A DNA stretch of 64,000 nucleotides from an uncultured Bacteroidota bacterium (GTDB lineage: Bacteria > Bacteroidota > Ignavibacteria > UBA10030 > UBA8401): positions 247,363 through 311,362 of the forward strand of contig CAVYWA010000014.1 of assembly GCA_963772165.1 (NCBI GenBank), written 5' to 3'. The position numbers and the translations under genes were made by a program. Below, piece by piece: positions 25,207 through 48,946 of this stretch (positions are counted from its first letter, which is position 1; every line of letters begins with the position of its first letter). The notes below the pieces were generated by a model that was given only the letters and a program-made list of their open reading frames with translations, searched no databases and was not told where the DNA came from.

Positions 25207-25210
25207 AAAC

Positions 25211-32162: not shown

Positions 32163-34953
32163 ATGAACACCCACTCCCCGGGGCAATCCAAAACGAATAA
32201 TTCATATCGAGTTACCGAAGCTCAAACGCGGTTTAGCCTTATTGATCCCGAGCTTCAAAAAGCTGGATGGAATCTCTCTGATCGAACGCAAGTTAAATTC
32301 GAGATTCCGGTTGACGGGTATGACGGCTCGGGCGGTGGCGGATTCACCGATTACACTTTGTATAGAACAAATGGCGAAATCCTCGCGGTGGTAGAAGCAA
32401 AGCGAACAAGCCGTGACCCGCGAGAAGGGGAGAAACAGGTTCTTGAATACGTTACTGCGATAGAGAAGAAGCAGAGCTTCCGTCCATTCGCATTCATGGC
32501 GAATGGTGAGGATGTATTCTTCTGGGAGAGTGATACCACAGCCCAACGCCACGTTGCGGGATTCTTCTCGCGTGAGAATCTTGAGCGCCTTCTTTTCTTA
32601 AAGCAAAATAAAAAGCCGCTCAACTCAGTCCTTCCGAATAAAACGATCATCGACCGGAGCTACCAGGTCGAAGCGATTCGTAGAATCTCCGAAGCAGTTG
32701 AAAAGAAAAAACGAAAAGCTCTCCTCGTGATGGCGACGGGGACCGGCAAGACCCGCACGATCATGGCGTTGATCGATGTCTTCCTGCGGGCTCACGCCGC
32801 GCAGAAGGTTCTCTTTCTTGCCGACAGGGACGCTCTTGTCGACCAGGCGCTCAGCGACGGCATCAAGGCCCATCTCCCTCACGAATCGCGGACGAGGATA
32901 CGAACCTATTCGATCGACACAACCGCACGACTCTACGTCTCCACGCTTCAAACCCTCGAGATGTGTTACGATAAATTCACTCCAGCAGATTTCGATCTCG
33001 TCATAACTGACGAATGCCACCGTTCGATTTACAATAAATTCACCGACGTGCTGGCTTATTTCGATGCTGTGCACATCGGACTGACCGCGACGCCTGCGGA
33101 ATTCATCGACCGAGATACGTTCAAGTTTTTTGATTGCGAGGGGAGAGTGCCGACATTTCTCTATCCGTTTGATAAGGCAGTGGAGGAGAAGTATCTGGTA
33201 GACAAAAATGTTTATGCTGCACAGACAAAGTTTCAAAGGGAAGGAATAAAAGGGGCGAATCTCAGCGAAGTAGATAAAGAGACCCTTCGCAGCCGCGGGA
33301 TCGATCCCGATGATCTCGACTACGAAGGGACCGATCTTGAACGCAAGGTGACAAACAAGGACACATTGCGGAGTCAGTGGGAAGAGTTTATGGATGTCTG
33401 CTACAAAGACTCCACAGGCCAGCTTCCAGGGAAATCGATTATTTTTGCCATCACACACAATCATGCGATGCGTTTGTCTGAAACTTTCGACGAGATGTAT
33501 CCCGAGTATGAAGGGAAGCTCGTTCAGGTAATTGACTCAAAGATGGAACGTGCCAAGACGCTTCTTGACGATTTCAAGAAGCAGAATTTTCCTCGCATTG
33601 CAATTTCTGTAGACATGCTCGATACAGGCGTGGACGTTCCCGAAGTGGTCAACCTTGCCTTCATGAAGCCGGTCAATTCGCAGATCAAATTCTGGCAGAT
33701 GATTGGACGTGGCACGAGGAACCAGGAGGCCTGCAGGCACTATGAGTGGCTGCCGAACAGAAATAAAGAAGAATTCCTAATCGTTGATTATTGGGAGAAC
33801 TTCGAGCACTTCAATATGATGCCGGCTCAGGAGGAGGGAGTTTCGCAAATCCCGGTTCTGGTGACAATTTTCAACACGCGATTAGATAAGCTTCGCATCT
33901 TTCAGGGAAATCAGACATTCCCCGATGCGCTGCGGGTCATTCGCGACCTGAGAAGTGACATCGCGCGGATCCCGCTACAATCCTTTTCGGTGAAGAAAGT
34001 ATTCAACGAAGTGCGTGAAGCGTGGGAAGACGAGTTCTGGAAGTACTCTCACCGAGCAAAAGATAGAATTTCTGCGGATGAAAGTTGGACCGCTTCTGCG
34101 GTATGTTCCCAACGTGCGTCCGGTTGAGGCATCTTTATAAGTAAGATGGAGCGCTGTGGACTTGCACACCTCCAGCACAAAGATCTCGCTTCTTATATAA
34201 CCTCAATTCGCGAAGATGTAGGGTTACTTCCGACGACATTGGGCGAAGTGCAATCGAGGCAGAAATACGTCGATCAGCTTATGTCGAACGATTTCTGGGT
34301 GAACCACACGCTTGCAACAATTGACGAAGCGAAAGAGGCGCTCTCCCCAGTAATGAAGTTCAAACGCGAGCGACCGTCGTTCGTTTTCGAACTGGGGCTT
34401 GACGATGTGATTGCAATGCGCAAGTGGGTCGTGGTAAGAAAAGATTCTCAAAAGATGTATATCGAAGAGTACCGAAAACTAGTAGAAGCGAAGATCGAGA
34501 AGATCGCTGCCGAGCATCCGACAGTAAAGAAGATTAAGAATAAGGTTGAGATTGACAATGAGGATATGATACGATTGGAGGAGACGCTCGAAGCGGAGCT
34601 TGGAACGGACGAGATTAGCCTCGACGATGAGAATATGCTGAAGGCGTTTGGTGTGCGCGTTGGAAGCTTGGTGGACTTCCTTAAACATGTGCTCGGACTT
34701 GAAGCGCTCCCCTCGTACGAAACTGTTGTGAGGAAGGCATTCGATGCCTTCATCCTTGAGCACAACTACAATTCAGATCAGTCAAGGTTCCTGCGTGTAA
34801 TGCAGAGTGTGTTTTTGCAGCGGAGAAAAGCTGCAGCTTGCGGATCTGTATGAAGAGCCGTTTACGAACTTCGGTGCGAATGCGGTAGAGAAACTGTTTG
34901 CGGGAAATGAAATTACTGAACTAATTGAGTTGGCAAAGAGATTGGCGCCGTAA
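32163..34953 (+). pseudogene. hsdR: Type I restriction enzyme R subunit (HsdR), disrupted by an in-frame TGA at 34125-34127 and a frameshift near 34801-34853
   Basis: The N-terminal region has the HsdR_N motif (TEAQTRFSLIDPELQKAGW). The helicase region reads MATGTGKT..VITDECHRS. After the in-frame stop the same frame continues into the EcoEI_R_C-like domain (34146-34853). The final ~30 codons (..EEPFTNFGANAVEKLFAGNEITELIELAKRLAP) lie in a third frame. Confidence 0.7.
34862..34884 (+). repeat. Left copy of the 23-bp imperfect direct repeat (tttacgaacttcggtgcgaatg) at the hsdR 3' end
   Basis: It matches 38082-38104 (tttacgaactttggtgcgaatg) at 22 of 23 positions. Both copies encode ..PFTNFGAN.. 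Confidence 0.7.
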
Positions 34954-34999
34954 AATCCTGCATGACACAATTTGAATTAACATTAAGGAGGAAACTAAT

Positions 35000-35371
35000 A
35001 TGGGAAGTTCTGGAACAGGTAAGCTAAGTGATTATTCGGAAAAGACTGAAAAGAAAGGGGGCGGGAAGGCTTCTGGTGCCAGCGGCAAAGATCCTTGTGA
35101 TAACGCATTTGCAACTACACTGGAAGATGTTGATCGATGTGAGTACTTTAAAAATCACAAGTCGGTTCCGCCTATTGGCACAGAAGTCATCGTCTCTCTT
35201 AAAGGCCGCCTTTTGGTTGATACATTGGCCGGCGAGACTATTGGCTACTTACCCACGGAGTATAACTATTTGGCTGGATGTATGAAGAAAAAACGTTCAT
35301 ATGGAGGTCAGGTCTCTTCAGCTACCACGAAACCTGTAATTAGAGTTAGGGTTGACATCGGACCACAATGA
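35000..35371 (+). CDS. Small hypothetical protein with Gly/Lys-rich N-terminus (first gene of the 4-gene cassette)
   Basis: The 123 aa ORF has a strong AAGGAGG RBS 7 nt upstream. Its N-terminus reads MGSSGTGKLSDYSEKTEKKGGGKASGASGK.., and it has a ~80-aa C-terminal domain. Confidence 0.45.
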   Translation: MGSSGTGKLSDYSEKTEKKGGGKASGASGKDPCDNAFATTLEDVDRCEYFKNHKSVPPIGTEVIVSLKGRLLVDTLAGETIGYLPTEYNYLAGCMKKKRSYGGQVSSATTKPVIRVRVDIGPQ

Positions 35372-35372
35372 C

Positions 35373-36740
35373 ATGACGGAAAAGTCTTCGGCAATCTTGC
35401 TCATCGGAGAGACCTGCCTTGATGTGACCCTTTTTCCTGCAGGCACATTGGAAAGGAAGCTTAGGCTCGGCGGAGTGGTACATGCTGCTCGATGTCTTTG
35501 GGGACTTGGGGCTTCATATCAACTGGCATACTTGGCACCAAGTTACTTGTTTCGCCAAATCGAAGACTACGCCCTAGCCCACGGCTGTTCCAACGTCTCA
35601 CAGATCGCGACAATTGAGGGTGCACCCTGCGTTATGCTTATTGAAGAAGCCACTGAAGCGGGTAGTCAGGGATATGACTATCTACTACGAGACGAATTGA
35701 AGTGTGATATCGATACACCAAGATTGGAAAGCATAGTCACAAAAACGGAAATATCTGACATCTTGGTGTTTCCGGGCAACTATGATCTCGCCAAGGTGCT
35801 CGTTGCATGTTCTAAATCAAAGGCTCGGATACATATTGATATCGCAAACGGTGTCAGTAATCTCAGTGTCCTGAAAAAGTTTGTGAGAAAATTTGACACG
35901 GTCATTACTTCCACATCATCAGAAATCTTCTTGGACAAATTTAAGGGGAGTCCCGAGCGCCTTTGCCAAGAAGTTCTTGATATCTATGGTGAGTCTTTCT
36001 TATTGAAAGAGAATCGTGGAGGCTCAAGATTTTACTCGAGCAGAGCACAGAAGAAGCCCATCGAAATCGGGGCTCAGTTGAGACCCATTGTCCACTCTGT
36101 TGGAGTGGGAGATGCGTTCGACGCAGCATTTGTTAATCTTAGGCAGACGCGCGATGACGAATCTGCCCTTACTTGTGCTTCATGGATTGCTGCAGAATAC
36201 GCGGCAACTACGTTCATGGACGACTTTACAGATGGCTGTAGTCGTGTTTTGGCATTGGAACGAGACGAGATCTTATCTCTTCCAGGTGTTTCTCTTCCAT
36301 GGGAAGTCCGTAGCCAATTCAATATTTATATTGCTGCTCCTGATTTTGACTATCTGGATAGAACACACATCGATCGATTAGTCAGTTGTCTCAAGTATCA
36401 CAATTTCAATCCGAGGCTTCCTGTTCGAGAACATGGACAAAGCAGGCCAAACACAGCGAGTCATGAGAAATACGAAATGTGTGGCGCTGATTTGTCATTG
36501 CTCGATGAATGCGATATGTTAGTTGCGCTAAACTTGGGGAATGATCCAGGTACATTGATTGAAATTGGCTTAGCCAAAGGGGCTGGTAAGCCAGTAGTGG
36601 TTTATGATCCATTTGAGAAAGCTAAGAATCTAATGTTAACTCATCTGCCAGACTTCGTGTCATCGAGTCTTGACGGAATAGTGACTAAAGTGTTTGAGAT
36701 AATATCAACGATCAGGCATGCCGCATCACAGAAAAAATAG
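35373..36740 (+). CDS. PfkB-family kinase fused to a nucleoside 2-deoxyribosyltransferase-like (NDT/Rossmann) C-terminal domain
   Basis: The N-terminal half reads ..LLIGETCLD..GGVVHAARCLWGLG.. and ..VGVGDAFDAAFV.. (the PfkB GAGD-type signature). The C-terminal half reads ..NIYIAAPDF..CDMLVALNLGNDPGTLIEIGLAKGAGKPVVVYDP.., an NDT-like DxGTxxExG..GKP pattern. The ATG at 35373 lies 2 nt after the upstream stop. Confidence 0.55.
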   Translation: MTEKSSAILLIGETCLDVTLFPAGTLERKLRLGGVVHAARCLWGLGASYQLAYLAPSYLFRQIEDYALAHGCSNVSQIATIEGAPCVMLIEEATEAGSQGYDYLLRDELKCDIDTPRLESIVTKTEISDILVFPGNYDLAKVLVACSKSKARIHIDIANGVSNLSVLKKFVRKFDTVITSTSSEIFLDKFKGSPERLCQEVLDIYGESFLLKENRGGSRFYSSRAQKKPIEIGAQLRPIVHSVGVGDAFDAAFVNLRQTRDDESALTCASWIAAEYAATTFMDDFTDGCSRVLALERDEILSLPGVSLPWEVRSQFNIYIAAPDFDYLDRTHIDRLVSCLKYHNFNPRLPVREHGQSRPNTASHEKYEMCGADLSLLDECDMLVALNLGNDPGTLIEIGLAKGAGKPVVVYDPFEKAKNLMLTHLPDFVSSSLDGIVTKVFEIISTIRHAASQKK

Positions 36741-37347
36741 ATCCGTTCTTTTAGCCTCCGGGGGCCTTGACTCGACTACATTGGCATATTGGTTATGTCG
36801 AAAAAAAATTGAATTCCTCCCTGTGTTTGTAAACTATGGACAACATTGTGCAAAGACGGAGTACGAAACACTCAGAGAAGTGCTTCCGAAACATTACTCA
36901 AGACACATCCATGTCGTTGATATCTCTGATGTCTACAAGCGCTCGAAATCGCTTTTGATTCGTGAGCCAAACCTGTGGAAAGATCGAGTGAGCTACCGCG
37001 AATTGTATCTTCCTTATCGCAACTTGCTCATTCTGTCCACGGGCGCGGCATTTGCACAGTCCGTAGGTTGCAAGTGTCTCTATGCGGCATTTATCAACAG
37101 CAACCATGCGATTGAAATTGATTGTTCTGTCGAGTTCTTTGGCAGATTGGATTCCATGCTATCGAGCTATGGGTCTGTCAAACTGTTCATGCCATTTCGC
37201 ACAAAATCGAAATATCAGGTAGCAAAGATGGGTATCTCGCTTCGTGCGCCTATTGGGAAAACGTTCTCATGTCAAGTTTCATCGGTCACTCCGTGCGGCG
37301 CCTGTCCAAATTGTGTTGATCGGTTACAGGCACTTCGTCAACTTTGA
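36718..37347 (+). CDS. QueC-like PP-loop ATPase (7-cyano-7-deazaguanine synthase family)
   Basis: The sequence has VLLASGGLDSTT (the SGGxDS PP-loop). A C-terminal Cys cluster reads C-x8-C-x2-C-x2-C (FSCQVSSVTPCGACPNC), matching the QueC Zn site. It overlaps the upstream gene by 23 nt. Confidence 0.7.
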   Translation: MPHHRKNRSVLLASGGLDSTTLAYWLCRKKIEFLPVFVNYGQHCAKTEYETLREVLPKHYSRHIHVVDISDVYKRSKSLLIREPNLWKDRVSYRELYLPYRNLLILSTGAAFAQSVGCKCLYAAFINSNHAIEIDCSVEFFGRLDSMLSSYGSVKLFMPFRTKSKYQVAKMGISLRAPIGKTFSCQVSSVTPCGACPNCVDRLQALRQL

Positions 37348-37376
37348 TATCATGTAGCATCATTTTGAGAATAGTC

Positions 37377-38069
37377 ATGAACCTAATCGTTTTCGCGCGT
37401 AAACTTGCTGATTACCTTAACAAGCTTCCAGATTTTGTAATTTCTAAGCACAACGGTTACGACAAAGAGAGTATGGGTGCGATAATAGCAGATGCGGTAT
37501 TGCAGGCAGGCCTTAATTACCGGACCGTTGTTGCTCCGAGAGTCAAGAGAATTCTCAACGATTATCCAGATGCTGCGACAACTTCAGGTTTCCTAGTAAC
37601 AATCGACAGGTTCGGATGCGATGTAATCCTTCGATGGAATCACCCGGAAAAGCCGAGAAGAGTTCAATCTCTGGCTTTATTGCTTGAAAACGAACAAGTT
37701 GAGACCAAGGATCAATTGCGCGATTGGCTTAAAAATGACGTTAACAGTGAAAAGTTGAGAGCTATCCCGGGAATTGGACCGAAGACCATCGATTATCTGA
37801 AGAACTTATCCGGACTTTCAGCAATTGCCATAGACCGACACATACGTAGGTTAGCCTTCGAAGCAGGTATAATCATTACTGATTACCGTACGTTGCGAAA
37901 GGTGGTCGAGTTTACTGCGGATCTTCTTGATGTTCCGCAAAATGATCCTGACCATTCAATATGGCTCTACATGTCCAAGCCTTCACGATCATATTGTAAG
38001 AAGACCTCAGAATTTTCAGAGCAACCAGCATTCTCTCGCGAAAGAAATGGCAAAGCTTGTTTAATTTGA
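37377..38069 (+). CDS. HhH-GPD superfamily DNA-glycosylase-like protein (OGG/EndoIII-like); an alternative TTG start at 37344 overlaps the queC-like stop
   Basis: The sequence reads ..LRAIPGIGPKTIDYLKNLSGLSAIAIDRHIRRLAFEAG.., a helix-hairpin-helix followed by a Gly/Pro-rich loop and a conserved Asp. Confidence 0.55.
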   Translation: MNLIVFARKLADYLNKLPDFVISKHNGYDKESMGAIIADAVLQAGLNYRTVVAPRVKRILNDYPDAATTSGFLVTIDRFGCDVILRWNHPEKPRRVQSLALLLENEQVETKDQLRDWLKNDVNSEKLRAIPGIGPKTIDYLKNLSGLSAIAIDRHIRRLAFEAGIIITDYRTLRKVVEFTADLLDVPQNDPDHSIWLYMSKPSRSYCKKTSEFSEQPAFSRERNGKACLI

Positions 38070-38081
38070 AGCGAGGACCAT

Positions 38082-38104
38082 TTACGAACTTTGGTGCGAA
38101 TGTT
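38082..38104 (+). repeat. Right copy of the 23-bp imperfect direct repeat flanking the cassette
   Basis: See 34862-34884. It lies 13 bp after the glycosylase-like stop. Confidence 0.7.
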
Positions 38105-38253
38105 GCCGATGAGCTGTGTGGTGAACATGAGATATAAGATTTTATTGCGTTGGAGAAGTTGTTAACTTTGCCGGCGTTTTTTTGTATATTCAGGATGGAT
38201 TCTATCTAGACAACGTGATGAGTCTTCCCTATTAATAGTTTACGCATTTATCC

Positions 38254-39400
38254 ATGGAACCATTGGTATTCATACATCTGTCAGACATCCACTTTTCCAA
38301 GCCGGGGAAACTGTTTGATTTGGACAGTGAACTCAGAAATCAATTGGAATTGGATGTACAACGGATGACGAAAAACTTTGAGGGAGGAGCCAACGGCATC
38401 TTAGTTTGCGGTGATATCGCTTTCTCTGGAGGTACCGAAAAGTACCAGGAAGCAAGTCGTTGGATTAAGAAGCTACTCGGAATGGCAAAGGTTGAGAACG
38501 GCGGCGTTTGGGTGGTGCCTGGGAATCACGATATAAACTGGACGACTATTCGGAGCAGCAAATCCCTGAGAGAGGCACACACAACACTCCGTGGCACACC
38601 GCTTAGCTCAATCGACCAATGTTTCAAAGAATATCTTGATGACAATATTCTCAGACTCTTTGAACCATTGAAGGAATTCAACTTATTTGCATCTTCTTTT
38701 GATTGCGACTCAACCCCTGATCGCCTATTTTGGCAAGATGATCTTGAACTTAATGATGGCTCAATACTGAAAATAAGAGGGATGAATTCGAGTATAATTT
38801 CGAACGAGTATGATAATGATGAGGGAAAGAGTCTGATACTGACTTCATTTCAGTCAGGCTTTATTGAGGAGCCAAACATTACTTACGTTTCCATGTGTCA
38901 CCACCCACCACAAAGGATTCGTGAAGAAGATGACCTCGAAGATTGCTTGAATTCGAGAGTTGCGATCCAGCTATTTGGACACAAACATCGGCAACGATTG
39001 CGTCGGAACGGTGAAGGTCTCAGAATTTCCGCAGGAGCCAGTACACCCTGCTCGGGATGAGAGTCCATGGGAGCCATGTTATAATTGGATCTCAATTTGT
39101 GTCGATATTACCGAAAGCAATCGGAATCTCGTGGTCGATGTTTGGCCGCGCGTATGGAGACCTGCAAGTAGGACTTTCGAGCCTGAATTTCACGATAGCA
39201 AAGAATTCAGACGATTCACCCTGCCTCTAAAACCGTGGAAAGGCAGTAAGGTAAAGAAAATTCAAGCTCAGGTTGGAGACCAGACCAAAGGCCCCCTGGC
39301 TGTTATTAAGGCGAAGTACCATGGATCCCAAAAGACAATTGGTTTATCGCTTTTTAAGTCTCCCATATACCCAGATTATAGAAATCGCAGTGGGCCTTAG
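38254..39400 (+). pseudogene. Calcineurin-like metallophosphoesterase gene with a probable frameshift near 38990-39060
   Basis: The N-terminal part reads IHLSDIHF..GDIAFSG..GNHD..GHKH in frame 1 (38254-39060). Coding-like sequence continues in frame 2 (38960-39400). Confidence 0.45.
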
Positions 39401-39498
39401 GTTGCTAACGGACCAAGACAAAGGTGTCGAGGATTTGGAACTTTTCAAGCGATTCATTGCGAGAGTGAAAAGAGAGGAAGAGAAACGATGGCTCAGCT

Positions 39499-40215
39499 TT
39501 GGGATTGGGTGGAGGACAAGTACGGGAGCGAAAGAAGCACCACAAACCCCTTCAAGACAAACTGATCGGAGAAAAAACAAATGGAAATGAACCCTCTTTT
39601 TTGGAAGGGTACGGAATGGTTTACCCCAACCCATCAGTTGAGATTCTCCAAAGGCGATGGGTCATCGTGGAATCGATTGCTGATGCCCTAAGTACTCCAC
39701 ACACAGCGAGCCTCGTGGCCCTCTGCGTATGCGGCCTGAAGGAAGATTCCATAATCAACCTATTGAACGAGAAGTTCAAGGCTGAAGACGATTCATTCAA
39801 CATCCGATCTAACATAGAAGGGTTGAGATCCCTCGGAACCGCGATCTTGGCTAGGATCATAGAATATGAGAAATCACAAAACTGCACATTCACCGCTCTT
39901 GCTGTCCATTGTGCTAGTTTTGGGAAATCGAAAGGGGACGCATTCACCGCAGATATCATTGAAATTGCTGGAAAATTTCTTGCAAAAAAAACGCTGCAGA
40001 TTCGATCGCGCACTTCAACCGAATCAAGCTTGATGAAAAACAAAGACCTTGAAGGGAACGATGTAGGGACACAAGCGCTCAATCTCGCCAAAGGGCTGCA
40101 AAAGAGCACTATGGAACTTGTGAAGAAATTGAGCACTAATTTTGAATTGCTAGCTGAAGAAAGCAATATGTTCTGGTGGTTAGTCGGGGAATCAGAACAT
40201 TGGGCGAGTCTCTAA
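39499..40215 (+). CDS. Hypothetical protein, probably a fragment of a larger frameshifted gene
   Basis: This 238 aa ORF is too long to arise by chance at this GC content. It overlaps neighbouring ORFs in other frames (39273-39590 and 40176-40601). Confidence 0.35.
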   Translation: MGLGGGQVRERKKHHKPLQDKLIGEKTNGNEPSFLEGYGMVYPNPSVEILQRRWVIVESIADALSTPHTASLVALCVCGLKEDSIINLLNEKFKAEDDSFNIRSNIEGLRSLGTAILARIIEYEKSQNCTFTALAVHCASFGKSKGDAFTADIIEIAGKFLAKKTLQIRSRTSTESSLMKNKDLEGNDVGTQALNLAKGLQKSTMELVKKLSTNFELLAEESNMFWWLVGESEHWASL

Positions 40216-40601
40216 TCGACCTTCCTCATCCTGCCCGTTTGCTATTAGCGGCCAAAGAGTTGGCTGCCCTGACCACTCTTAGACCAGGACCACCATCAGC
40301 CAAGGCGATTCTTTTAAAATGTGCGAAACTGACTAAGGATAAGTCAAGCGGATCATCTTCGCTGAAGCATGCCATAAATTCGATTCCGCAGGAATGGCTT
40401 TCTGCGACTCTCAATCCGAATAGCCAAGTTCTAGAACTTGCTAACACCTCTGATGTTTGCAGGACACAGACGAATGGAAAGCGGAAGCAAAACGGCATGG
40501 TCGAGCAGCTTTTGAAAAAGAATAGGGATACCTACAGACAAGCAGATATCAGATGCAGATCTGGCATTCCAGTATTATCAAGAATGTCTGCTCGAAGCTG
40601 A
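40176..40601 (+). CDS. Hypothetical protein fragment (continuation of the preceding reading frame chain)
   Basis: The 141 aa ORF has a GTG start and overlaps the end of 39499-40215 by 40 nt in a different frame. Confidence 0.3.
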   Translation: MVSRGIRTLGESLIDLPHPARLLLAAKELAALTTLRPGPPSAKAILLKCAKLTKDKSSGSSSLKHAINSIPQEWLSATLNPNSQVLELANTSDVCRTQTNGKRKQNGMVEQLLKKNRDTYRQADIRCRSGIPVLSRMSARS

Positions 40602-40692
40602 ATTCAAAACATTGACAGAGGAGTAAAATTGGGAGACGAAGAAATCGTGAATAAAGATCAACCAACAGGTACTTGGAGAAATTAGAGAATCG

Positions 40693-42333
40693 ATGTCGGT
40701 CGCTTCAAAGGGAAAGGGAGAGGCAGATCAGGGAGAAATGCGAGAGCTGTTTTCAGGTGAAGACTTGAAGGCTGCAGACGTTGAGCGGATAATGGATTCA
40801 TCAGGAACCAGGTTGATCGTTCTTGCTGGCGCTGTGGATGCTGGCAAAACAACATTATTGCTGACGATAGTTCATCAATTCTACAAGGGCGGATTTGGGG
40901 ACTTCAACTTTGCGGGGTCAAGAACACTACTTGCGTTTGATAGAAGAGCTTTTGATTCAAATATTATATCAGGAAGAACTGTACCGACCACTCAACATAC
41001 AATTTCGAGTCTTGATAACATCAAGTTTCTGCATCTGGCAGTTAGAAATAAAGATATGAGTGGGCCAATAACCAACTTGCTATTTACAGATATCTCTGGG
41101 GAGAATTTTCGGGATGCGAGCGACTCTGTTGAGGAATGCCGCAAACTTTGGGTTCTCCGTCGAGCCGACAGATTGGTTCTTTTATTCGACGGGAACAAGA
41201 TAGCCGATCCGGCTAACGCCAGAAAGCGAAAGTAGAGGGAATGATGTTGCTGAGAAGATGCGTCGAAGCGGAAATGATTGGCGGACAATCCAAAATCGAT
41301 ATCATCTTCACAAAAAAGGATATCTTAGAAACCTCTCCAGATAAAGGAAGAGCACTTCCGTTTGTGGATGAGATAAAGGCCGAAATTCTGAGTAAGTTCA
41401 TGGGCTCTTTGGGAACTATTAGTTTCTTCTCTGTCGCGGCTCGTCCAACGATGAAGCCAATACTTGGCGAGACTTATGGCTTCAAGGAATTCCTACCAGC
41501 TTGGATTGATGAGAGTCCATTTATTCGGACGATAAAAAGAGACGTTCCGAACACGTTATCCGAAAATTCCCGAATGTTTTTATCTTCGAAGCTTGAGGAG
41601 GAATATGTGATAACTGATGTAGCAATTCATCGGTGCAGTCAACTTCTGGTCGGATTACCAGACACAGGGAAGTCGACCTTCCTTGCTGCTTTGTATCACC
41701 AGGTTGAAGGCGGTGACATCAAAGGTTCTTTGGTATTGGAGAGGTTAGGGTCTGATATCGAGTATCTAAACAGAATCAGGGAAGATTGGTTGAAATGCGA
41801 AAAGATTAGTAGAGCTACTGGTGTCAAAAGCAAAAAAGTACAATGCTTCTACGGGATCCCAACACATCATTACTTTCAGGGTCACGATTCCTGATTTACT
41901 TGGTGAGATTTTTGACCATCAATTCGAGGAGAGAAGATGGACTGATGAATTCGAAGAAATGGTTATTTATGTAATGGTCTCGTGGTTTTTATTCATCCCG
42001 ATAAAGTCACTCCGGTGAGATCTATTATGGAGGCAAACGTTGTAGTGGAAATGGTTGAAGAAAAGGACTCTCTAATGCCCCCCTTGTAACATGGACGGCA
42101 AAGGGTCCGCGACTCAGATAAAGTTGGTAGATATTCTCCAATGCATACTCGATGGTACGGCTGAGGATAAAGTTACTCCCGTTGCGATTGTAATATCGGC
42201 GTGGGATCGGGTGCTTTCATTACCTAAAGAGTGCGGCGGAAATCCCAAAAGATTCGGTCAAAAAGAGACTGCCTTTGTTGAACCAGTTCTTGGATTGAAT
42301 TACGAGAGGTTATTACAAGATATTCGGAATTAG
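40693..42333 (+). pseudogene. Double-GTPase-like (two tandem P-loop GTPase domains) gene with three or more frameshifts
   Basis: Domain 1 reads GAVDAGKTT (G1), DISGE (G3) and, after the first frame break, ..KIDIIFTKKDIL (G4). Domain 2 reads GLPDTGKST (G1), ..PDLLGE.. (G3) and ..VAIVISAWD... Frame changes occur at ~41217-41235, ~41821-41894 and 42018-42091. Confidence 0.5.
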
Positions 42334-42497
42334 TGTCAAGGAGGCGATTATACAAAGGACAAAGCAAATATTGGGTGAGGCATCGAAAAGGGTTCTTGTT
42401 TATTCAGATACCGGAGCATATGACAAGGATATTTCCGCTCCTATAATAAACAATGGGCAATGTCACTTGTTCCTTTAGAAGAACGTGGTAAATATTA

Positions 42498-43095
42498 TTG
42501 ATGGTACTACATCAAACATTACACGGTTATTGGGACTGTCATAGATTGCTTCAGTCATCATTGGATCTGGACTCTTCAGAAAAAAGAACTTTGTTGTCGA
42601 TGTCAGACATGTCAGGTCCTAGAATGGTCAATGGCTTCGAGGAAGATCTCCTCAGGGTACCCGATTCCTTAATTGAGAGTACTTTGCATTTGCCAAACCA
42701 TGGTACGCTAACGAAATGCCTCGTCCAGGTTGTGTTTGGACTCACTGGGTTATCGACCGAGAAGACGAATCTTGCCATACTTGTTAGAAATACTATTATC
42801 GCTTTTCACTCGTCCGGGTGCCGTTTCTTCCATATTATCGTATGGTCGAGATGTTGTTATTGATGAAAGCCTGACAGTAAATAGAAATGTCAAACTCGTA
42901 AGACTTGACCTTGGAAGGATCAGTCTGAATGCGAGGAACAAAACAGCCTTGTTTGCCTTACCCTACAAGCCTATATTTTTGATTTCTTCTAATGCAAGAG
43001 ATTTCGAATATGTTCCGCTAGGGATCTGGAAAGGAATCTGGCCAGGATTAAGAGTCTGTATATGTGTTTTTTGCAGTTGCTTTTTACATTCTTAA
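42498..43095 (+). pseudogene. Hypothetical gene split across two frames near 42820
   Basis: The ORFs 42498-42863 and 42730-43095 overlap, and a +/-1 shift would join them. Confidence 0.3.
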
Positions 43096-43391
43096 ACAGA
43101 GTCATTGACAATACACCTTTGGATCTTCAGATAATTCCTCGCTCAAGCCTATCTACAATAAGACGAAGCCAATAATGCTCTGTTCCTCGACGAGGAATCA
43201 AAAGGTATCGACGAACTAGGCGATGTGCGTGAAATGGCGGAACTTCAGAAATGATTACAAAAACCTAAGTTTTTCAATTTCGCCACTCAATATACCTCAG
43301 ATATGTCAGGCGGAAGAGAATTAATGATGCTCTAAGCTCGATCTTTAAACTCATAGAAGACACCAAAAATGACACTAAATCAATAAGTGAG

Positions 43392-44600
43392 TTGACCCGA
43401 GGTATAGCACTTGCGTTTCCAAGTCCAACTGAGGCAGCGAGATTGAAGAAATCCCTATATACACCATTCTCGGACACTTTATTGGATCCTATGTTGATAG
43501 ACAAGAAAGAAGCCGAATTGCTATTGGAACTGATCACAACGCCATTTATCGGTTGTATGAACACACAAGAGTTATCTATTACATATAGGACCAGGTCCTT
43601 TTGGTTGCAATCAAGGCCTGAAGCAAAGAGACTTCTTCTGGATACTCTGGAGCTTGACCACAATTCGCTGTTTGATGAGTTTCTTTCAGCTACAGCGTCA
43701 GTTCTATCACCTGAAGATATTTTAGAAATAAGTCATTCGAAACCCAAACTCTTACCTTTCTTTATTCTCAGCAATCCCAAGTTGGCAACCTCGCCTCAGT
43801 TATGGAAAACTTCAGTAGATGTGCAACGTGAGATTTTTGATGTCCTAAAAGAGTCCAAGGACAGCAGTTCTATTGATTGGAATGCAGTGGTGACAGCTAT
43901 TTTTGCTGCAGGTGCGGAACATCTGAGTGTGGTCATTGTAGAGAGAATTGGTTTGCTTCCATTTCTAGGTATTCTCGACAAAATTAAATTTTCTCCAGCG
44001 GATTTTTCACAACAATGGAAGAGGGCCACTGCTTCGAAAGATTCTCTTGTATGTAAATGGCTTGAGATCAGCAATTCTCCTTCTCAGAATATCCTTACTC
44101 TGTTTGCTCTGTCAAGTGAGCCACGTTCATGTATTTTTGACGCGTCAAACCTCGCTCCTTGGGTACGTTTAGCAGATTCCTTGGAATCCTTCAATTCAAG
44201 CATCAGAATCAGAATAGCGGCATTCTTGTTGGCATTGGGCCTCTACAATCAGGATCAAGAAACATATAAACTCGTAACACGCAGCTTCCAAATTGTCCAT
44301 GATGCAGCTGAGAAGGATAACCTCCCTTACGACTCATGGCGCCTTTTGGAAGGGTTGGTTCCTGAGTTGTCTTGGACAAAGAACTGGGACAAGTGCGAAC
44401 GCCTTATACGCGGGGTGGTGGAACGTTACTCGAACTGGAAGTGGCCCATATCTTCGTTTGTTCAAGTTACAAATCGAGAGGATACTCTTAAACGAATTCT
44501 CAAACGGTGTATGAAGAACCCCGATGGAGTCCAATTTGTGCAGCTACTCAAAAAAGAACAGTCCGGTGGACTTAAGCGAGTTATCAAAGAGGTAGAATAA
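43392..44600 (+). CDS. Hypothetical alpha-helical protein
   Basis: The 402 aa ORF has no recognisable motif. It lies between the decayed GTPase region and hsdM. Confidence 0.4.
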   Translation: MTRGIALAFPSPTEAARLKKSLYTPFSDTLLDPMLIDKKEAELLLELITTPFIGCMNTQELSITYRTRSFWLQSRPEAKRLLLDTLELDHNSLFDEFLSATASVLSPEDILEISHSKPKLLPFFILSNPKLATSPQLWKTSVDVQREIFDVLKESKDSSSIDWNAVVTAIFAAGAEHLSVVIVERIGLLPFLGILDKIKFSPADFSQQWKRATASKDSLVCKWLEISNSPSQNILTLFALSSEPRSCIFDASNLAPWVRLADSLESFNSSIRIRIAAFLLALGLYNQDQETYKLVTRSFQIVHDAAEKDNLPYDSWRLLEGLVPELSWTKNWDKCERLIRGVVERYSNWKWPISSFVQVTNREDTLKRILKRCMKNPDGVQFVQLLKKEQSGGLKRVIKEVE

Positions 44601-44785
44601 GCATCAGTCGGTTCATCACTTTCCACATTTTTTCCTCCGCAGCACTCTACTAGAAATCCAATTTTGAGAGAGTAATCTGCTTTCGCGTTAGGTAGGTGGA
44701 AGGTGGCGAACATAGTTTAACATGTAGCATCCCGACCCGAAGGTTCCTCAGTGGGGGAACGTTACTCATAACATCGTCAATACGA

Positions 44786-46286
44786 ATGCTCACCGACCCA
44801 CAACTTAAATCTAAAGTCGACGCTCTCTGGGACCGCTTCTGGTCCGGCGGCATCGCCAATCCTATTACTGCCATCGAGCAGATGTCCTATCTCATATTTC
44901 TCAAGCGGCTGGAGGATATGGACAATGCCCGTGCTGCGGGCGCGAAGAGAAAGAACGAATTATATCGTTCTATTTTCCACGGGAGCAAAGACTGTCGGTG
45001 GTCTGTACTGGAGTCAATTGCCTGGCGATCAGATGCTAAAGCATGTACGTGACAAGGTCTTCGACTTCCTGCGCGAACTTGGGAGCAACACAAGCTCGTT
45101 TACCCAGCACATGCAGGATGCCGTCTTCATCATCCCGAAGGCATCGCTGCTGCAGGAGGGGGTGAAGATCATCGACGATATGCACATTGCCGAGCAAAAC
45201 ATCGATGTGCAGGGAGATCTCTACGAATATCTGCTAATGCAGCTCACCACTGCGGGGAAGAACGGACAGTTCCGGACGCCAAGGCACATCATCCGGATGA
45301 TGGTGAAGCTGGTAAACCCGAAAGTGGGCGACCGTATCTGCGACCCGGCTGCGGGCACGGGCGGGTTTCTAGTGAACGCGTACGAGCACATACTCGAATC
45401 GAACACATCCCCCGACGTTCTTGAATACGACGACGAAGGGAAACCGCATCACTTAATCGGCGACAAGATCGCGGATAAGAAGCTGCTGAAGTTTCTGAAG
45501 AGCCAGGCGTTGACAGGTTACGACTTCGACGCGACGATGACGCGCATCGGCGCAATGAATCTGATGCTGCACGGGATCGACAATCCGAATTTTCGGTATA
45601 CAGATACACTCTCAAAGTCGTTTACCGAGAAGGGACAATACGACGTAATCCTCGCCAACCCGCCATTCAAGGGATCGATCGACAAGAGCGACATCAACGA
45701 ACGCTTCTCAACGAAGACGACGAAAACGGAATTGCTTTTTATTGAATTGATGTACGACCTCTTGGTGACCGGCGGACGTTGCGGCGTGATCGTGCCCGAC
45801 GGTGTATTGTTCGGGACGAGCAACGCACACATTGCAACGCGGCGGATTCTTGCTGACAAGTGCAAGCTCGAAGGCGTTGTCTCGATGCCATCTGGAGTAT
45901 TCAAGCCCTACGCCGGAGTCTCGACTGCGGTGCTCGTGTTCCAGAAAGGCGGCACCACGGACAATGTCTGGTTTTATGACATGAAGGCGGATGGTTTCTC
46001 GCTGGATGATAGGCGACAGAAGATAGCCGAGAACGATATTCCCGACATCGTTAAGCATTGGGGAGATCGAGGCAAATCGAAAATCGGCAATCGTAAATCG
46101 AAAATGTTTGCCGTTCCCGCCGACGAAATCCGTTCCAACAAATACGACCTATCCATTTCACGATACAAGCTAATCGAGCACAAGAAAATTGAATACGAGA
46201 AGCCGGAGGCGACGATGAAGAAGTTACTGGAGTTGGAGAGAAAAATCGGAAACGATATTGAATCAATTCAAAGAATGCTTAAATGA
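44786..46286 (+). pseudogene. hsdM: Type I R-M methyltransferase subunit HsdM, frameshifted near 44990-45020
   Basis: The HsdM_N segment (MLTDPQLKSKVDALWDRFWSGGIANPITAIEQMSYLIFLKRLED..RWS) is in one frame. The methylase core (..DPAAGTGGFL..ANPPFKG..) is in another frame (44925-46286). Confidence 0.7.
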
Positions 46287-47413
46287 CCCAGCGCAAGTTG
46301 CAACTTGGGAGCCTTGTATCAATCGTAAAAGGTAAAAAACACGATGAGGTTTCTAACATTCCGTCGCTTGGGTCCAAGAGGTATATTCAAATCGATGATC
46401 TCAGGAACAATTCCAATTTGAAGTATACGACCAATTCTGGAGTGGAAGTCGGCATTGACGACGTGATTATTGCCTGGGATGGTGCAAATGCTGGTACAAT
46501 CGGATTTGGATTGAATGGATATATTGGAAGTACTCTTGCTCGACTAAGGATTATTGATGCTCAAGTTTATTCAAAATTCTTGGGATGGTGCCTGCGCGGT
46601 CAATCAGTTTCAATAAGGGAGAAATGTACCGGCGCAACAATTCCTCATGTCAACAAGTCTTTTCTCCAATCTATCGATGTACGCCTTCCCCCTCTTCCCA
46701 TCCAAAAACAAATCGCCGAAATATTAGAGAAAGCCGATACAACTCGTGAGATGCGTCTGGAGGCTAATGAACTCACCCAACAGTTTTTACATTCGGCCTT
46801 TTTGGAGATGTTCGGCGATGGGACGCACAAGCGTGTAAAGTTGAGAGATGTTTGTCGAATCATTACGGATGGCACGCACATCACTCCAAAGTATCTAAAT
46901 CAGGGAGTACCTTTTGTCTCGGTGAAGGATGTAAGGAGTAAGAAAATTGATTTCAATAATGTAAAGTATATCTCTCGTGATGAGCATCTTTTCATTACAA
47001 AAAGGTGTAGACCAGAAAAGGGGGATATCCTTTATACAAAAGTTGGTGCGACATTTGGTAACGCTGTACTGGTTGATCTAGATACTGAATTTAGTATCTT
47101 CGTGAGTCTTGCATTACTGAAACCTAAGTTTGATATAATTGAGCCACACTTTTTGCATTACATGATGAACACTGATTTTGTGAAGAGCCAGGCACGGCAA
47201 CGGATAAAAGGAATTGCTGTTCCTGACTTACATTTGATCGAGATCAAAGACTTTGATATCTACCTGCCTGAGATGGCTGAACAGCGAAAATTTCTCGGCT
47301 TAGTCGAGAAGGTTGAATTGCTCCGTGTTAAACAGCGAGAATCGGAGAAAGAGCTAAACAATCTCTTCAACAGCCTTATGCAGAGAGCGTTTCGAGGGGA
47401 GTTGGTGGAGTGA
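46283..47413 (+). CDS. hsdS: Type I R-M specificity subunit HsdS
   Basis: The 376 aa ORF has a start overlapping the hsdM stop (ATGA). It has two TRD-like halves and the conserved central and C-terminal coiled regions. Confidence 0.7.
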   Translation: MTQRKLQLGSLVSIVKGKKHDEVSNIPSLGSKRYIQIDDLRNNSNLKYTTNSGVEVGIDDVIIAWDGANAGTIGFGLNGYIGSTLARLRIIDAQVYSKFLGWCLRGQSVSIREKCTGATIPHVNKSFLQSIDVRLPPLPIQKQIAEILEKADTTREMRLEANELTQQFLHSAFLEMFGDGTHKRVKLRDVCRIITDGTHITPKYLNQGVPFVSVKDVRSKKIDFNNVKYISRDEHLFITKRCRPEKGDILYTKVGATFGNAVLVDLDTEFSIFVSLALLKPKFDIIEPHFLHYMMNTDFVKSQARQRIKGIAVPDLHLIEIKDFDIYLPEMAEQRKFLGLVEKVELLRVKQRESEKELNNLFNSLMQRAFRGELVE

Positions 47414-47420
47414 ACCAACG

Positions 47421-48777: not shown

Positions 48778-48906
48778 CCTATTGACATTCACGAACGAAA
48801 TATTTATTTTTGCGAGTGAAGTTGAGCATATGCTGCCACACTACCACTACTCTACTACTACGACAGGCGCTAACCACTAACAGAGACTTTAACTACGTCT
48901 AATAAG

Positions 48907-48946
48907 AATGCTCAATTCTCAATTTAAGAATTGAGCATTTTTGTTT
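48907..48946 (+). terminator. Rho-independent terminator
   Basis: A perfect 12-bp stem (aatgctcaattc / gaattgagcatt) with a 9-nt loop is followed by tttgttt. Confidence 0.6.

What the first reader, a model, noticed from the sequence alone, without database searches (positions are those of the whole stretch)
38254..43095. Heavily frameshifted metallophosphoesterase plus double-GTPase-like region: remnant of an NTPase-based conflict system
At least 6 frame changes occur within 5 kb. They link coding-quality ORFs for a calcineurin-like phosphoesterase, a ~380-aa unknown region, and two tandem P-loop GTPase domains. G1, G3 and G4 motifs are recoverable across the breaks (GAVDAGKTT/DISGE/TKKD and GLPDTGKST/DLLGE). 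Tandem 'double-GTPase' proteins are associated with NTP-dependent conflict systems, so this looks like a decayed defence operon next to the intact cassette.
Basis: partly seen in the sequence, partly recalled or inferred. Interest (0 to 1): 0.6.

Follow-up and report, generated by a model that had tools for sequence, protein, structure and literature searches.

The report
Double-GTPase defence operon garbled by sequencing
This stretch is a five-gene 'double-GTPase' anti-invader operon of a kind already described by comparative genomics, and its many broken reading frames are most likely sequencing or assembly errors, not real gene decay.

Summary
The broken frames and the domains are really in the window. 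Pfam finds Metallophos, GAAD, GASH, DO-GTPase2, DO-GTPase1 and GAP1-N1, in that order.

The locus is the GAP1-N1 type "GTPase-centric" conflict system of Kaur et al. 2020. It has five genes and spans 38254-44600, not 38254-43095:
- phosphoesterase-GAAD effector
- GASH
- DO-GTPase2
- DO-GTPase1
- GAP1

The two GTPases are separate genes, not tandem domains. The "402-aa helical protein" is the C-terminal 60% of GAP1. Intact collinear operons exist in at least three other phyla.

The "decay" is probably not biological:
- Near-identical copies in other assemblies read through the window's breaks and carry different breaks of their own.
- Two short Logan contigs encode an intact effector (436 aa), DO-GTPase2 (327 aa) and DO-GTPase1 (298 aa).
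- About 30 indels are private to the window. Only 1 lies in a homopolymer. They outnumber or rival substitutions.
- They cluster at GTAC/CTAG, where every long assembly errs differently. That matches long-read consensus noise at modified motifs.

The flanking hsdR and hsdM "lesions" are repaired by single-base corrections at the same motifs.

This is an ordinary member of a known, still untested system, on a 31-kb tRNA-Asp island. Real pseudogenisation in this strain is not excluded (about 15-20%).

The parts
38254..39565 (+). Gene 1: calcineurin-like phosphoesterase effector fused to the C-terminal GAAD adaptor (true length about 436-437 aa). In the window the frame runs 1 -> 2 -> 0 -> 2, caused by private indels at 39040 (+1, at GTAC), 39318 (-2, at GTAC) and 39465 (-1).
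   Evidence: Pfam Metallophos and GAAD. 41% identity over 270 aa to the L006 effector. An intact 436-aa version, P0028, sits on Logan contig L007. The catalytic motifs DIH, GDIAF, GNHD, CHH and GHKH are all present (translation).
39581..40626 (+). Gene 2: GASH (GTPase-associated system helical) protein, about 348 aa. Window indels at 39602 (-1), 40193 (all assemblies differ here) and 40435 (+1, at CTAG), plus a private nonsense change TCA->TGA at 40513-40515.
   Evidence: Pfam GASH at 3e-15 on the reconstruction. tblastn to the L005 and L006 GASH proteins. Logan contigs L007 and L008 meet exactly at 40193/40194.
40693..41610 (+). Gene 3: DO-GTPase2. It is 327 aa if the upstream start near 40629 is used. 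Walker A is GAVDAGKTT, Walker B is DISGE, G4 is TKKD. It has no N-terminal zinc ribbon. Window indels at 40668 (+1, at GTAC), 41214 (-1) and 41587 (-2). The last one fuses it in frame to gene 4.
   Evidence: Pfam DO-GTPase2 at 5.3e-29 on the fragment and 1.1e-37 over positions 2-226 of 226 on the reconstruction. An identical intact 327-aa product, P0009, occurs in L008, L009 and L010.
41607..42498 (+). Gene 4: DO-GTPase1, about 298 aa. Walker A is GLPDTGKST, Walker B is DLLGE, and SAWD stands in place of NKxD. The window has at least 12 private indels from 41837 to 42447, and the stop codon is changed from TAG to TAT.
   Evidence: Pfam DO-GTPase1 at 4.7e-57 over positions 1-271 of 271 on the reconstruction. 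An intact 298-aa product, P0020, sits on Logan contig L008. Multi-way alignment.
42501..44600 (+). Gene 5: GAP1 (GTPase-associated protein 1, N1 type), about 696-700 aa. The N-terminal third (42501-43332) is the noisiest part of the window. The C-terminal part (43332-44600) is the intact '402-aa ORF'.
   Evidence: Pfam GAP1-N1 at 2.8e-08 on the fragment and 3e-22 on the reconstruction. tblastn places L5_GAP1 residues 12-196 on 42507-43053 in three frames, and residues 290-706 on 43332-44567 at E 2.7e-60.
32094..34853 (+). hsdR of the surrounding type I restriction-modification system. The apparent in-frame TGA at 34125-34127 comes from a compensating pair of window-private indels: +1 at 34048 (at GTAC) and -1 at 34131.
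   Evidence: Pfam ResIII, HSDR_N and EcoEI_R_C. Three-way comparison. Undoing the two indels gives a single 919-aa ORF.
35000..38069 (+). Neighbouring intact four-gene cassette, which is not part of the GTPase system. It comprises a 123-aa ORF, a 462-aa protein with a C-terminal nucleoside 2-deoxyribosyltransferase domain (and a faint sugar-kinase-like match upstream), a divergent QueC, and an HhH/OGG-like protein.
   Evidence: Pfam. PADLOC hits to QueC (8.5e-26) and OGG (2e-4). NCBIfam scores QueC at 86.4 bits against a cut-off of 150.3. No indel differences occur between assemblies in 34715-38013.
44696..47413 (+). hsdM (44696-46286) and hsdS (46283-47413). The hsdM 'frameshift' sits one base 5' of the GTAC at 45005.
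   Evidence: Pfam HsdM_N, N6_Mtase and Methylase_S. At that position the window has T, L010 has G and L009 has nothing. Removing the base gives one ORF.
19183..50446 (+). The roughly 31.2-kb genomic island that carries all of the above. It is bounded by 60-nt direct repeats at 19183-19242 and 50351-50410, made of the 5' part of tRNA-Asp (gene at 50371-50446). Integrases lie at 19374-20375 and 49041-50234.
   Evidence: the repeat finder family D1, ARAGORN and Pfam Phage_integrase. A 31,126-nt ENA contig joins window position 50349 to 19242.

Best explanation
The locus at 38254-44600 is a complete five-gene GAP1-N1 type DO-GTPase ('GTPase-centric') conflict system. It sits on a tRNA-Asp genomic island, between hsdR and hsdMS of a type I restriction-modification system.

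Inferred mechanism, following Kaur et al. 2020 and not shown experimentally:
- The two paralogous TRAFAC GTPases, DO-GTPase2 and DO-GTPase1, each have a Walker-B glutamate and form a heterodimeric GTP switch.
- GAP1, together with the helical GASH protein, senses the invader and couples that sensing to the switch.
- The calcineurin-like phosphoesterase effector is docked to GAP1 through its C-terminal GAAD adaptor.
- On activation the effector is released or switched on to hydrolyse a nucleotide or nucleic-acid substrate, causing growth arrest or immunity.

The roughly 30 frameshifts seen in this window are most likely not biological. They look like consensus errors of a long-read (nanopore-type) metagenome assembly, in a stretch that was poorly supported in this sample. 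They are concentrated at GTAC and CTAG palindromes, which are probably base-modified. The underlying operon, and the flanking hsdR and hsdM, are probably intact and functional.
For: Identity of the system:
- Pfam hits in the canonical order on the fragments.
- Full-length hits on the reconstructions: DO-GTPase1 4.7e-57 over 1-271/271, DO-GTPase2 1.1e-37 over 2-226/226, GAP1-N1 3e-22, GASH 3e-15, GAAD 2.3e-09.
- Collinear tblastn to intact five-gene operons in L005 (Pyrinomonadaceae MAG), L006 (Logan) and L012 (Anaerolineaceae MAG), and to a partial operon in L011 (Planctomycetaceae MAG).
- The published description fits: two DO-GTPase genes, GAP1, GASH and an effector-GAAD fusion, with the calcineurin phosphoesterase as the commonest effector.
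- Catalytic and G motifs are intact.

Frameshifts as artefact:
1. L001/L010 is 98.8% identical to the window but differs by 85 indel events, and the breaks are not shared.
2. In the five-way alignment the window alone deviates at about 21 indel sites in 38013-42450. L010, L009 and the Logan contigs L007/L008 agree there on an in-frame state.
3. Intact genes exist: P0028 (436 aa), P0009 (327 aa, identical in three contigs) and P0020 (298 aa).
4. Choosing between the states of the window and L001 at each difference gives stop-free ORFs of 437, 306, 292 and 696 aa, plus 348 aa for GASH, which also needs one base added at 40193 where neither assembly is in frame. Homologues are 438-450, 364-366, 340-356, 289-297 and 690-718 aa.
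5. The spectrum is unlike natural mutation. Of the 30 private indels only 1 is in a homopolymer of 3 or more, and 8 are within 3 nt of GTAC/CTAG. In 38-42 kb there are 10 private indels against 7 private substitutions, while the flanks at 44-50 kb have 1 private indel and 0 private substitutions. Substitutions show no codon-position bias (20 synonymous, 60 non-synonymous).
6. GTAC occurs in 16 of 85 indel contexts against 0.9 expected. The same GTAC sites are miscalled differently in each assembly: indels in the window, deletions in L010, C->A substitutions in L009. L009 also errs at GATC.
7. At the hsdM break the window inserts T, L010 inserts G and L009 inserts nothing, 5' of the same GTAC.
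8. At 40193 three assemblies have three different states, and the Logan contigs break exactly there.
9. Five of ten short-contig ends lie within 10 nt of GTAC/CTAG.
10. Base modification is documented to induce nanopore read errors (PMC11610603 and bioRxiv 10.64898/2026.01.14.699587, abstracts).
Against: - No reads were available, so coverage and platform are inferred. I do not know that the window's 351-kb contig, or the run ERR11630400, is nanopore.
- L009, L010 and probably L007/L008 come from one metagenome (ERZ25039529 / ERR11630400). They are not independent of each other and can share systematic errors. At 34471 they share a +1 while the window's state is the in-frame one.
- Window-private indels are strikingly local: 26 of 30 fall in 38-43.4 kb, and the window's other GTAC sites are clean. 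This needs an extra assumption, such as low or heterogeneous read support for this segment. Local neutral decay of a dead operon would also predict it.
- The window carries a private nonsense substitution (40514) and changes at conserved GAP1-N1 positions, as a real pseudogene would.
- The mechanism of the system itself is prediction only. No experimental study was found and no solved structure matches by sequence.
Confidence: 0.75

Rival explanations
1. Real pseudogenisation. In the strain that gave this window the DO-GTPase operon is genuinely dead and decaying, while sister strains (L009, L010 and the Logan contigs) keep it intact.
For: - Window-private indels and substitutions are confined to the operon. 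The neighbouring QueC cassette, hsdM/hsdS and the integrase have almost none.
- There is a private nonsense codon at 40514, a lost stop codon, and substitutions at conserved GAP1-N1 residues.
- Defence genes on mobile islands are often lost.
Against: - The indel-to-substitution ratio is 1 or more.
- 29 of the 30 indels lie outside homopolymers.
- Density jumps about tenfold, from roughly 0.4% in 38-42 kb to roughly 3.5% in 42-43.4 kb. The flanks show almost no neutral divergence, which is incompatible with one neutral clock.
- The same GTAC/CTAG sites are hit in other assemblies in different ways.
- The hsdR and hsdM 'lesions' are of the same kind and are trivially repaired.
Confidence: 0.17
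2. Real hypervariability centred on motifs. GTAC/CTAG sites would be true mutational hot spots, for example cleavage-and-repair scars or heavy base hypermodification. The neighbouring QueC/OGG-like/deoxyribosyltransferase cassette might make that modification. The population would then carry many indel alleles of the operon.
For: - GTAC and CTAG are strongly enriched at discrepancies.
- Short contigs from several samples, including an NCBI MAG contig, end at or near these motifs.
- Three different alleles occur at 38431-38445, at 40193 and at 45004.
Against: - GTAC is not depleted in core or island (observed/expected 0.81-0.84).
- GTAC sites in the window's other genes are clean.
- Different bases inserted at one position in different assemblies are more typical of basecalling than of mutation.
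- There is no evidence linking the cassette to DNA modification.
Confidence: 0.05
3. Programmed recoding. The frame changes would be read through by ribosomal frameshifting to make functional proteins.
For: None beyond the high number of frame changes within good coding sequence.
Against: - About 30 shifts of +1, -1, -2 and +5, with no slippery heptamers or conserved context.
- Homologues and sister assemblies encode uninterrupted ORFs.
Confidence: 0.01

Closest known systems
GTPase-centric conflict system, subsystem 1 (GAP1-N1 type) of Kaur, Burroughs, Iyer and Aravind, eLife 2020 (PMC7159879)
   Same: - Two paralogous DO-GTPase genes with a Walker-B glutamate.
- A downstream GAP1 with the N1 domain.
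- An all-helical GASH protein.
- An effector fused to the GAAD adaptor.
- The calcineurin-like phosphoesterase, which is the commonest effector in the paper.
- A likely Bacteroidota/FCB-group host, one of the phyla named there.
   Different: - Neither GTPase has the N-terminal zinc ribbon that the paper says one of them carries. 7 of the 8 aligned homologues have it on DO-GTPase2. Many zinc-ribbon-less forms of about 300-320 aa exist among 1,363 representative relatives.
- No SLATT or EAD1 partner was noted; this was not specifically searched.
- The operon is embedded inside a type I restriction-modification operon.
Intact phosphoesterase-GAAD operons in L006 (Logan SRR21397094) and L012 (Anaerolineaceae MAG CAZGRL010000097.1), and the PNP-GAAD operon in L005 (Pyrinomonadaceae MAG)
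   Same: Same five genes in the same order, with matching lengths. Collinear tblastn gives 26-48% identity.
   Different: - Only 30-48% identical.
- Their DO-GTPase2 carries a zinc ribbon.
- They have different neighbours and no flanking type I restriction-modification genes.
MoxR-vWA ternary conflict systems (same paper)
   Same: The logic is the same: a constant NTPase switch plus a coordinating 'third' component, with interchangeable effectors. The effector repertoire overlaps.
   Different: The switch is an AAA+ MoxR ATPase with vWA, not GTPases with GAP1. There is no sequence relationship.
Defence genes embedded in type I restriction-modification operons, such as the PrrC anticodon nuclease between hsd genes (from my own knowledge, not tested here)
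   Same: Accessory immunity cassettes sit between hsdR and hsdM/S.
   Different: The proteins are unrelated. No functional coupling to the restriction-modification system is shown here.
Modification-induced nanopore consensus errors (PMC11610603; bioRxiv 10.64898/2026.01.14.699587)
   Same: Discrepancies are concentrated at short palindromic motifs (GTAC, CTAG, GATC) and differ between assemblies of the same sequence.
   Different: - Published descriptions emphasise substitutions, whereas indels dominate here.
- The platform of these assemblies is not known to me.

Membership tests
GAP1-N1 type DO-GTPase (GTPase-centric) conflict system | Two paralogous DO-GTPase genes, one of each Pfam type | tested here: met
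   PF19993 at 1.1e-37 and PF19975 at 4.7e-57 on the reconstructed proteins. Separate intact genes of 327 and 298 aa sit on L008.
GAP1-N1 type DO-GTPase (GTPase-centric) conflict system | TRAFAC-type GTPase with a conserved glutamate in Walker B (DxxGE) | tested here: met
   DISGE and DLLGE are in the window. D154, S156, G157 and E158 are invariant in the alignment of nine DO-GTPase2 proteins.
GAP1-N1 type DO-GTPase (GTPase-centric) conflict system | A GAP1 protein with the N1 domain, encoded downstream of the GTPases | tested here: met
   PF20012 at 3e-22 over positions 2-100 of 101. Collinear with GAP1 proteins of 690-718 aa over about 700 aa.
GAP1-N1 type DO-GTPase (GTPase-centric) conflict system | A GASH helical protein in the operon | tested here: met
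   PF19994 at 3e-15. tblastn to the L005 and L006 GASH proteins gives E 1.5e-27.
GAP1-N1 type DO-GTPase (GTPase-centric) conflict system | A variable effector coupled through GAAD, EAD1 or fusion to GAP1 | tested here: met
   Metallophos plus a C-terminal GAAD (PF19976, 2.3e-09) in one 436-437-aa protein.
GAP1-N1 type DO-GTPase (GTPase-centric) conflict system | One DO-GTPase carries an N-terminal zinc ribbon | tested here: not met
   There are no Cys residues in the N-terminus of P0009 or P0020. Only 66 nt separate GASH from the DO-GTPase2 ATG. Seven of the 8 aligned homologues have the zinc ribbon and P0004 also lacks it. Many shorter relatives begin at the GTPase core. This is a common variation, not an exclusion.
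GAP1-N1 type DO-GTPase (GTPase-centric) conflict system | Acts in defence or conflict against invading elements | not testable with these tools
   This is a prediction only. The context fits: a mobile island, a type I restriction-modification system and a QueC/OGG-like cassette.
Genuine pseudogene / decayed operon | Disabling lesions reproducible in independent sequencing of the same lineage | tested here: inconclusive
   No second assembly of the window's own strain was found. Exact-product look-ups failed. Sister assemblies do not share the lesions.
Genuine pseudogene / decayed operon | A mutation spectrum typical of natural decay: substitutions far outnumber indels, indels fall in homopolymers or repeats, and flanking synonymous divergence is comparable | tested here: not met
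   Only 1 of 30 indels is in a homopolymer. The indel-to-substitution ratio is 1 or more, and the flanks have almost no private changes.
Type IV CBASS-like accessory set (QueC / OGG), for the neighbouring cassette | A CD-NTase cyclase together with QueC, TGT and OGG genes | tested here: not met
   Only the PADLOC QueC and OGG models hit. Pfam and NCBIfam detect no cyclase or TGT in 35000-38069.

The most novel reading that the evidence does not exclude
The indels would be real, not errors. GTAC/CTAG palindromes in this organism would be sites of genuine hypervariability or of a bulky base hypermodification. That modification might be made by the adjacent QueC/OGG-like/nucleoside-deoxyribosyltransferase cassette. 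It would both garble sequencing and create a population of frameshifted and restored alleles of a defence operon, amounting to a motif-targeted on/off diversification of immunity genes.
Probability: 0.05. Interest if true: 0.7.

Novelty: new member of a known kind. Interest (0 to 1): 0.15.

Why it matters
For the scan, this is a caution. A dramatic 'heavily frameshifted' locus in a long-read metagenome contig can be an intact operon, and comparing sister assemblies shows this without reads.

Biologically it adds one more example of the GAP1-N1 DO-GTPase system. This example lacks the zinc ribbon, carries the phosphoesterase-GAAD effector, and sits on an excisable tRNA-Asp island inside a type I restriction-modification operon. 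The system is still experimentally uncharacterised. The corrected sequences (P0028, P0009, P0020, plus the GASH and GAP1 reconstructions) could be used for a first functional test.

The discrepancies at GTAC, CTAG and GATC also hint at which motifs are modified in this uncultured bacterium.

Tried and rejected
- **Exact-product look-ups.** Five window ORFs (the 402, 268, 180, 453 and 241 aa products) were not on record. No second assembly of the window's own strain was obtained.
- **Genome-collection scans.** The scan with a single chimeric GTPase protein found nothing. The nine-sequence alignment was too divergent for pattern design. A four-sequence alignment gave only two loci.
- **Minimum-stop reconstruction.** This approach alone is not reliable. 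It chose a wrong local frame for 41841-41880 ('VNASTGSQHIITFR'), whereas the intact Logan protein reads 'GTMLLRDPNTSLLSE' (versus 51). The GAP1 N-terminal reconstruction had 1,260 stop-free paths. The reconstructed sequences are therefore approximate.
- **Synonymous versus non-synonymous test.** I meant it to show purifying selection between alleles. It gave a random-like 1:3 ratio everywhere, including in intact genes. That fits noise but says nothing about selection.
- **Restriction avoidance of GTAC.** Not seen (observed/expected 0.81-0.84).
- **'Agreement of L009 and L010 means truth'.** Rejected as a rule, because they share an out-of-frame +1 at 34471.
- **PDB sequence search.** It gave only a marginal GpdQ-like hit for the effector (E 0.04) and nothing for the GTPases. 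NCBIfam has no model for the GTPases.
- **Structure prediction.** Not run, because it would not bear on the main question.
- **The idea that the QueC cassette belongs to the GTPase system.** Rejected, because relatives L005, L006 and L012 lack it.

Full report

Yes. On the + strand between 38254 and about 43332, coding-quality stop-free segments alternate between all three frames. The fragments hit these Pfam families in order:
- Metallophos (38254-39060, 3.9e-10)
- GAAD (3.8e-07)
- GASH (weak, 0.026)
- DO-GTPase2 (40693-41235, 5.3e-29)
- DO-GTPase1 (three fragments: 7e-14, 1.3e-05, 2e-06)
- GAP1-N1 (42498-42863, 2.8e-08)

The family E-values exclude coincidence, and there are far more than six frame changes.

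**2. What is it?**

Word-indexed homology search found only about 340-aa single-GTPase relatives at 32-42% identity. Their contigs show an intact five-gene operon:

| Gene | Length in relatives (aa) |
|---|---|
| effector-GAAD | 438-450 |
| GASH | 364-366 |
| DO-GTPase2 | 340-356 |
| DO-GTPase1 | 289-297 |
| GAP1 | 690-718 |

L005 comes from a Pyrinomonadaceae MAG and has a PNP effector. L006 is a Logan contig and has a Metallophos effector. An Anaerolineaceae MAG (L012) has the same five genes with a Metallophos-GAAD effector. A Planctomycetaceae MAG (L011) has the last three genes.

tblastn maps all five proteins collinearly onto window 38248-44570. This leads to three corrections:
- The feature ends at 44600, not 43095.
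- The '402-aa helical protein' (43392-44600) is the C-terminal 60% of GAP1 (L5_GAP1 residues 290-706, E 2.7e-60).
- The GTPases are two genes, not tandem domains.

The locus matches 'GTPase-centric subsystem 1, GAP1-N1-containing systems' of Kaur et al. 2020 (PMC7159879). That description has two DO-GTPase genes with a Walker-B glutamate, GAP1, GASH and an effector often fused to GAAD. The calcineurin-type phosphoesterase is the commonest effector, and Bacteroidetes are among the main hosts.

The window's other genes suggest a Bacteroidota/FCB-group host: a T9SS sorting domain, a SusC-like TonB receptor and DUF3078.

The one departure from the description is that neither GTPase has the N-terminal zinc ribbon. 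Seven of the 8 aligned homologues have it. Short forms without it are nevertheless frequent among the 1,363 representative relatives. I found no experimental paper, and no solved structure matches by sequence.

**3. Are the frameshifts real?**

A look-up of the neighbouring QueC protein brought in L001, which is ENA ERZ25039529 contig_67432. It is 98.8% identical to window 26729-47348 but has 85 indel events. The breaks are not shared. L001 reads through the window's breaks at 39040, 39318, 39465 and 41214. The window reads through L001's breaks in the GAP1 C-terminus.

Cluster look-ups of L001's gene products revealed more copies:
- the window's own source contig (351,315 nt, NCBI and ENA)
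- a 452-kb contig from the same metagenome (L009)
- a further 30,970-nt ENA contig
- two Logan contigs from run ERR11630400

The Logan contigs encode intact genes. L007 carries the effector-GAAD (436 aa, P0028). L008 carries DO-GTPase2 (327 aa, P0009, identical in three contigs) and DO-GTPase1 (298 aa, P0020).

In a five-way alignment the window alone deviates at about 21 indel sites between 38013 and 42450. L010, L009 and the Logan contigs agree on the in-frame state there. A strict count gives 30 window-private indel events from 38013 to 43329, of which 17 are deletions and 13 insertions.

Choosing between the states of the window and L001 at each difference yields stop-free ORFs of 437, 306, 292 and 696 aa. 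GASH (348 aa) also needs one base added at 40193, where neither assembly is in frame. These reconstructions give full-length Pfam matches.

**4. Why I read them as errors**

- **Spectrum.** Only 1 of the 30 private indels lies in a homopolymer of 3 or more. In 38-42 kb there are 10 private indels against 7 private substitutions. In 42-43.4 kb the combined density reaches about 3.5%. The window's flanks at 44-50 kb have 1 private indel and 0 private substitutions. One neutral clock cannot produce this.
- **No selection signal.** Substitutions between assemblies show no codon-position bias anywhere (20 synonymous, 60 non-synonymous).
- **Motif association.** GTAC occurs in 16 of 85 indel contexts against 0.9 expected, and CTAG in 6 against 0.8.
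- **Each assembly errs differently.** The same GTAC sites are wrong in different ways: indels in the window, deletions in L010, C->A substitutions in L009. L009 also errs at GATC.
- **Multiple states at single sites.** At 38431-38445 (two GTACC sites), at 40193 and at 45004, three or four assemblies show three or four different states. At the hsdM break the window has an extra T, L010 has an extra G and L009 has nothing, just 5' of the same GTAC. Different inserted bases at one position point to basecalling, not mutation.
- **Contig ends.** The Logan contigs start or end exactly at these motifs: 36866 after GTACG, 40193/40194, and 42505 inside GTAC. Five of ten short-contig ends lie within 10 nt of GTAC/CTAG.
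- **Flanking genes.** The hsdR 'in-frame stop' disappears when a window-private +1/-1 pair (34048, 34131) is undone, giving a 919-aa ORF. The hsdM frameshift disappears on removing one base.

Base modification is known to induce nanopore read errors (PMC11610603 and bioRxiv 10.64898/2026.01.14.699587).

**5. What remains uncertain**

- I had no reads and do not know the platforms.
- L009, L010 and probably L007/L008 come from one sample, so they can share errors. At 34471 they share a +1 where the window is the in-frame one.
- The window's errors are very local. 26 of the 30 private indels fall in 38-43.4 kb, and its other GTAC sites are clean. The artefact reading needs this segment to be poorly supported in the source sample. 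One way that could happen is a minority island variant, or a mixture of variants. The island occurs both integrated and as a separate 31-kb contig in one metagenome, so heterogeneity is plausible.
- A real, strain-specific pseudogene would also give local damage, and the window has a private nonsense codon at 40514.

I put about 75% on artefact, about 17% on real decay in this strain, and about 5% on genuine motif-centred hypervariability or hypermodification.

**6. How it most likely works**

All of this is inferred from Kaur et al. 2020 together with the intact motifs seen here.
- DO-GTPase2 and DO-GTPase1 form a heterodimeric GTP switch. Their motifs are Walker A GxxxxGK[ST], Walker B DxxGE, and TKKD or SAWD at G4.
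- GAP1 (N1, M and C domains) and GASH coordinate sensing of the invader with that switch.
- The phosphoesterase has all five metallophosphoesterase motifs. Its C-terminal GAAD helix bundle is predicted to tether it to GAP1.
- On activation it would hydrolyse a nucleotide or nucleic-acid substrate.

None of these steps has been shown experimentally.

**7. Context**

The operon lies on a roughly 31.2-kb island bounded by 60-nt direct repeats made from the 5' part of tRNA-Asp. The island has two integrases. The operon sits between hsdR and hsdM/hsdS of a type I restriction-modification system, next to a four-gene QueC/OGG-like/deoxyribosyltransferase cassette. Relatives of the operon lack that cassette, so the two are independent modules.

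**8. Verdict**

This is an ordinary member of a known but untested system, and its striking appearance is most likely a sequencing artefact. Interest is low.

Noticed in passing
window 19183-19242 and 50351-50410; tRNA-Asp at 50371-50446; L010 19660-19800: A roughly 31.2-kb genomic island is bounded by 60-nt direct repeats, made of 20 nt upstream plus the first 40 nt of tRNA-Asp(GTC). Integrases lie at 19374-20375 and 49041-50234. In metagenome ERZ25039529 the island is also a separate 31,126-nt contig, in which window position 50349 is joined directly to 19242 without a copy of the repeat. That suggests an excised, circular or tandem form alongside the integrated copy (L009).
   Followed up: partly
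window 35000-38069: An intact four-gene cassette sits between hsdR and the GTPase operon. It comprises a 123-aa ORF, a 462-aa protein with a C-terminal nucleoside 2-deoxyribosyltransferase domain (and only a faint sugar-kinase-like match upstream), a divergent QueC (below the NCBIfam cut-off), and an HhH/OGG-like protein. PADLOC's QueC and OGG models hit it. By my own recollection these are type IV CBASS accessory genes, but no cyclase or TGT is present. It shows no indel differences between assemblies.
   Followed up: partly
window 34048, 34131, 34125-34127 (hsdR); 45004-45008 (hsdM): The type I restriction-modification genes look disrupted but are probably intact. The hsdR stop codon comes from a +1/-1 pair of window-private indels. 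The hsdM frameshift is one spurious base 5' of a GTAC, where the window has T, L010 has G and L009 has nothing. After correction hsdR is a single 919-aa ORF and hsdM is a single ORF (530 codons from 44696).
   Followed up: yes
GTAC/CTAG sites throughout window 27995-47348; GATC sites in L009: Discrepancies between assemblies cluster at GTAC, CTAG and (in L009) GATC. Short contigs from other samples end at or near these motifs. This suggests that these palindromes carry base modifications in this organism. GTAC is not depleted (observed/expected 0.81-0.84).
   Followed up: partly
window 9445-10255: A fatty-acid hydroxylase family gene outside the island is split into two overlapping ORFs (9445-9939 and 9725-10255) by a frameshift near 9866-9871. 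Pfam profile positions 1-57 fall in one ORF and 56-132 in the other. There is no GTAC or CTAG at the site.
   Followed up: partly
window 25181-26485, 27673-29343, 29897-31192, 47719-48777: Four sizeable island ORFs (434, 556, 431 and 352 aa) have no hit in Pfam, PADLOC or NCBIfam. The 556-aa and 431-aa pair lies just upstream of hsdR and could be another defence module.
   Followed up: no
window 55292-58019: An RnfC/Nuo51-like flavoprotein, a tandem-BMC shell protein and a class II aldolase lie downstream of the island. They look like part of a bacterial microcompartment locus for sugar or aldehyde metabolism.
   Followed up: no
window 20724-21581: A Fic/DOC family protein with a SoFic-like C-terminal domain lies near the left end of the island.
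   Followed up: no
L011 875-1743: The Planctomycetaceae MAG relative also shows one frame change inside its DO-GTPase1 (tblastn frames 2 then 1). That is a reminder that MAG copies of this operon are often imperfect.
   Followed up: no
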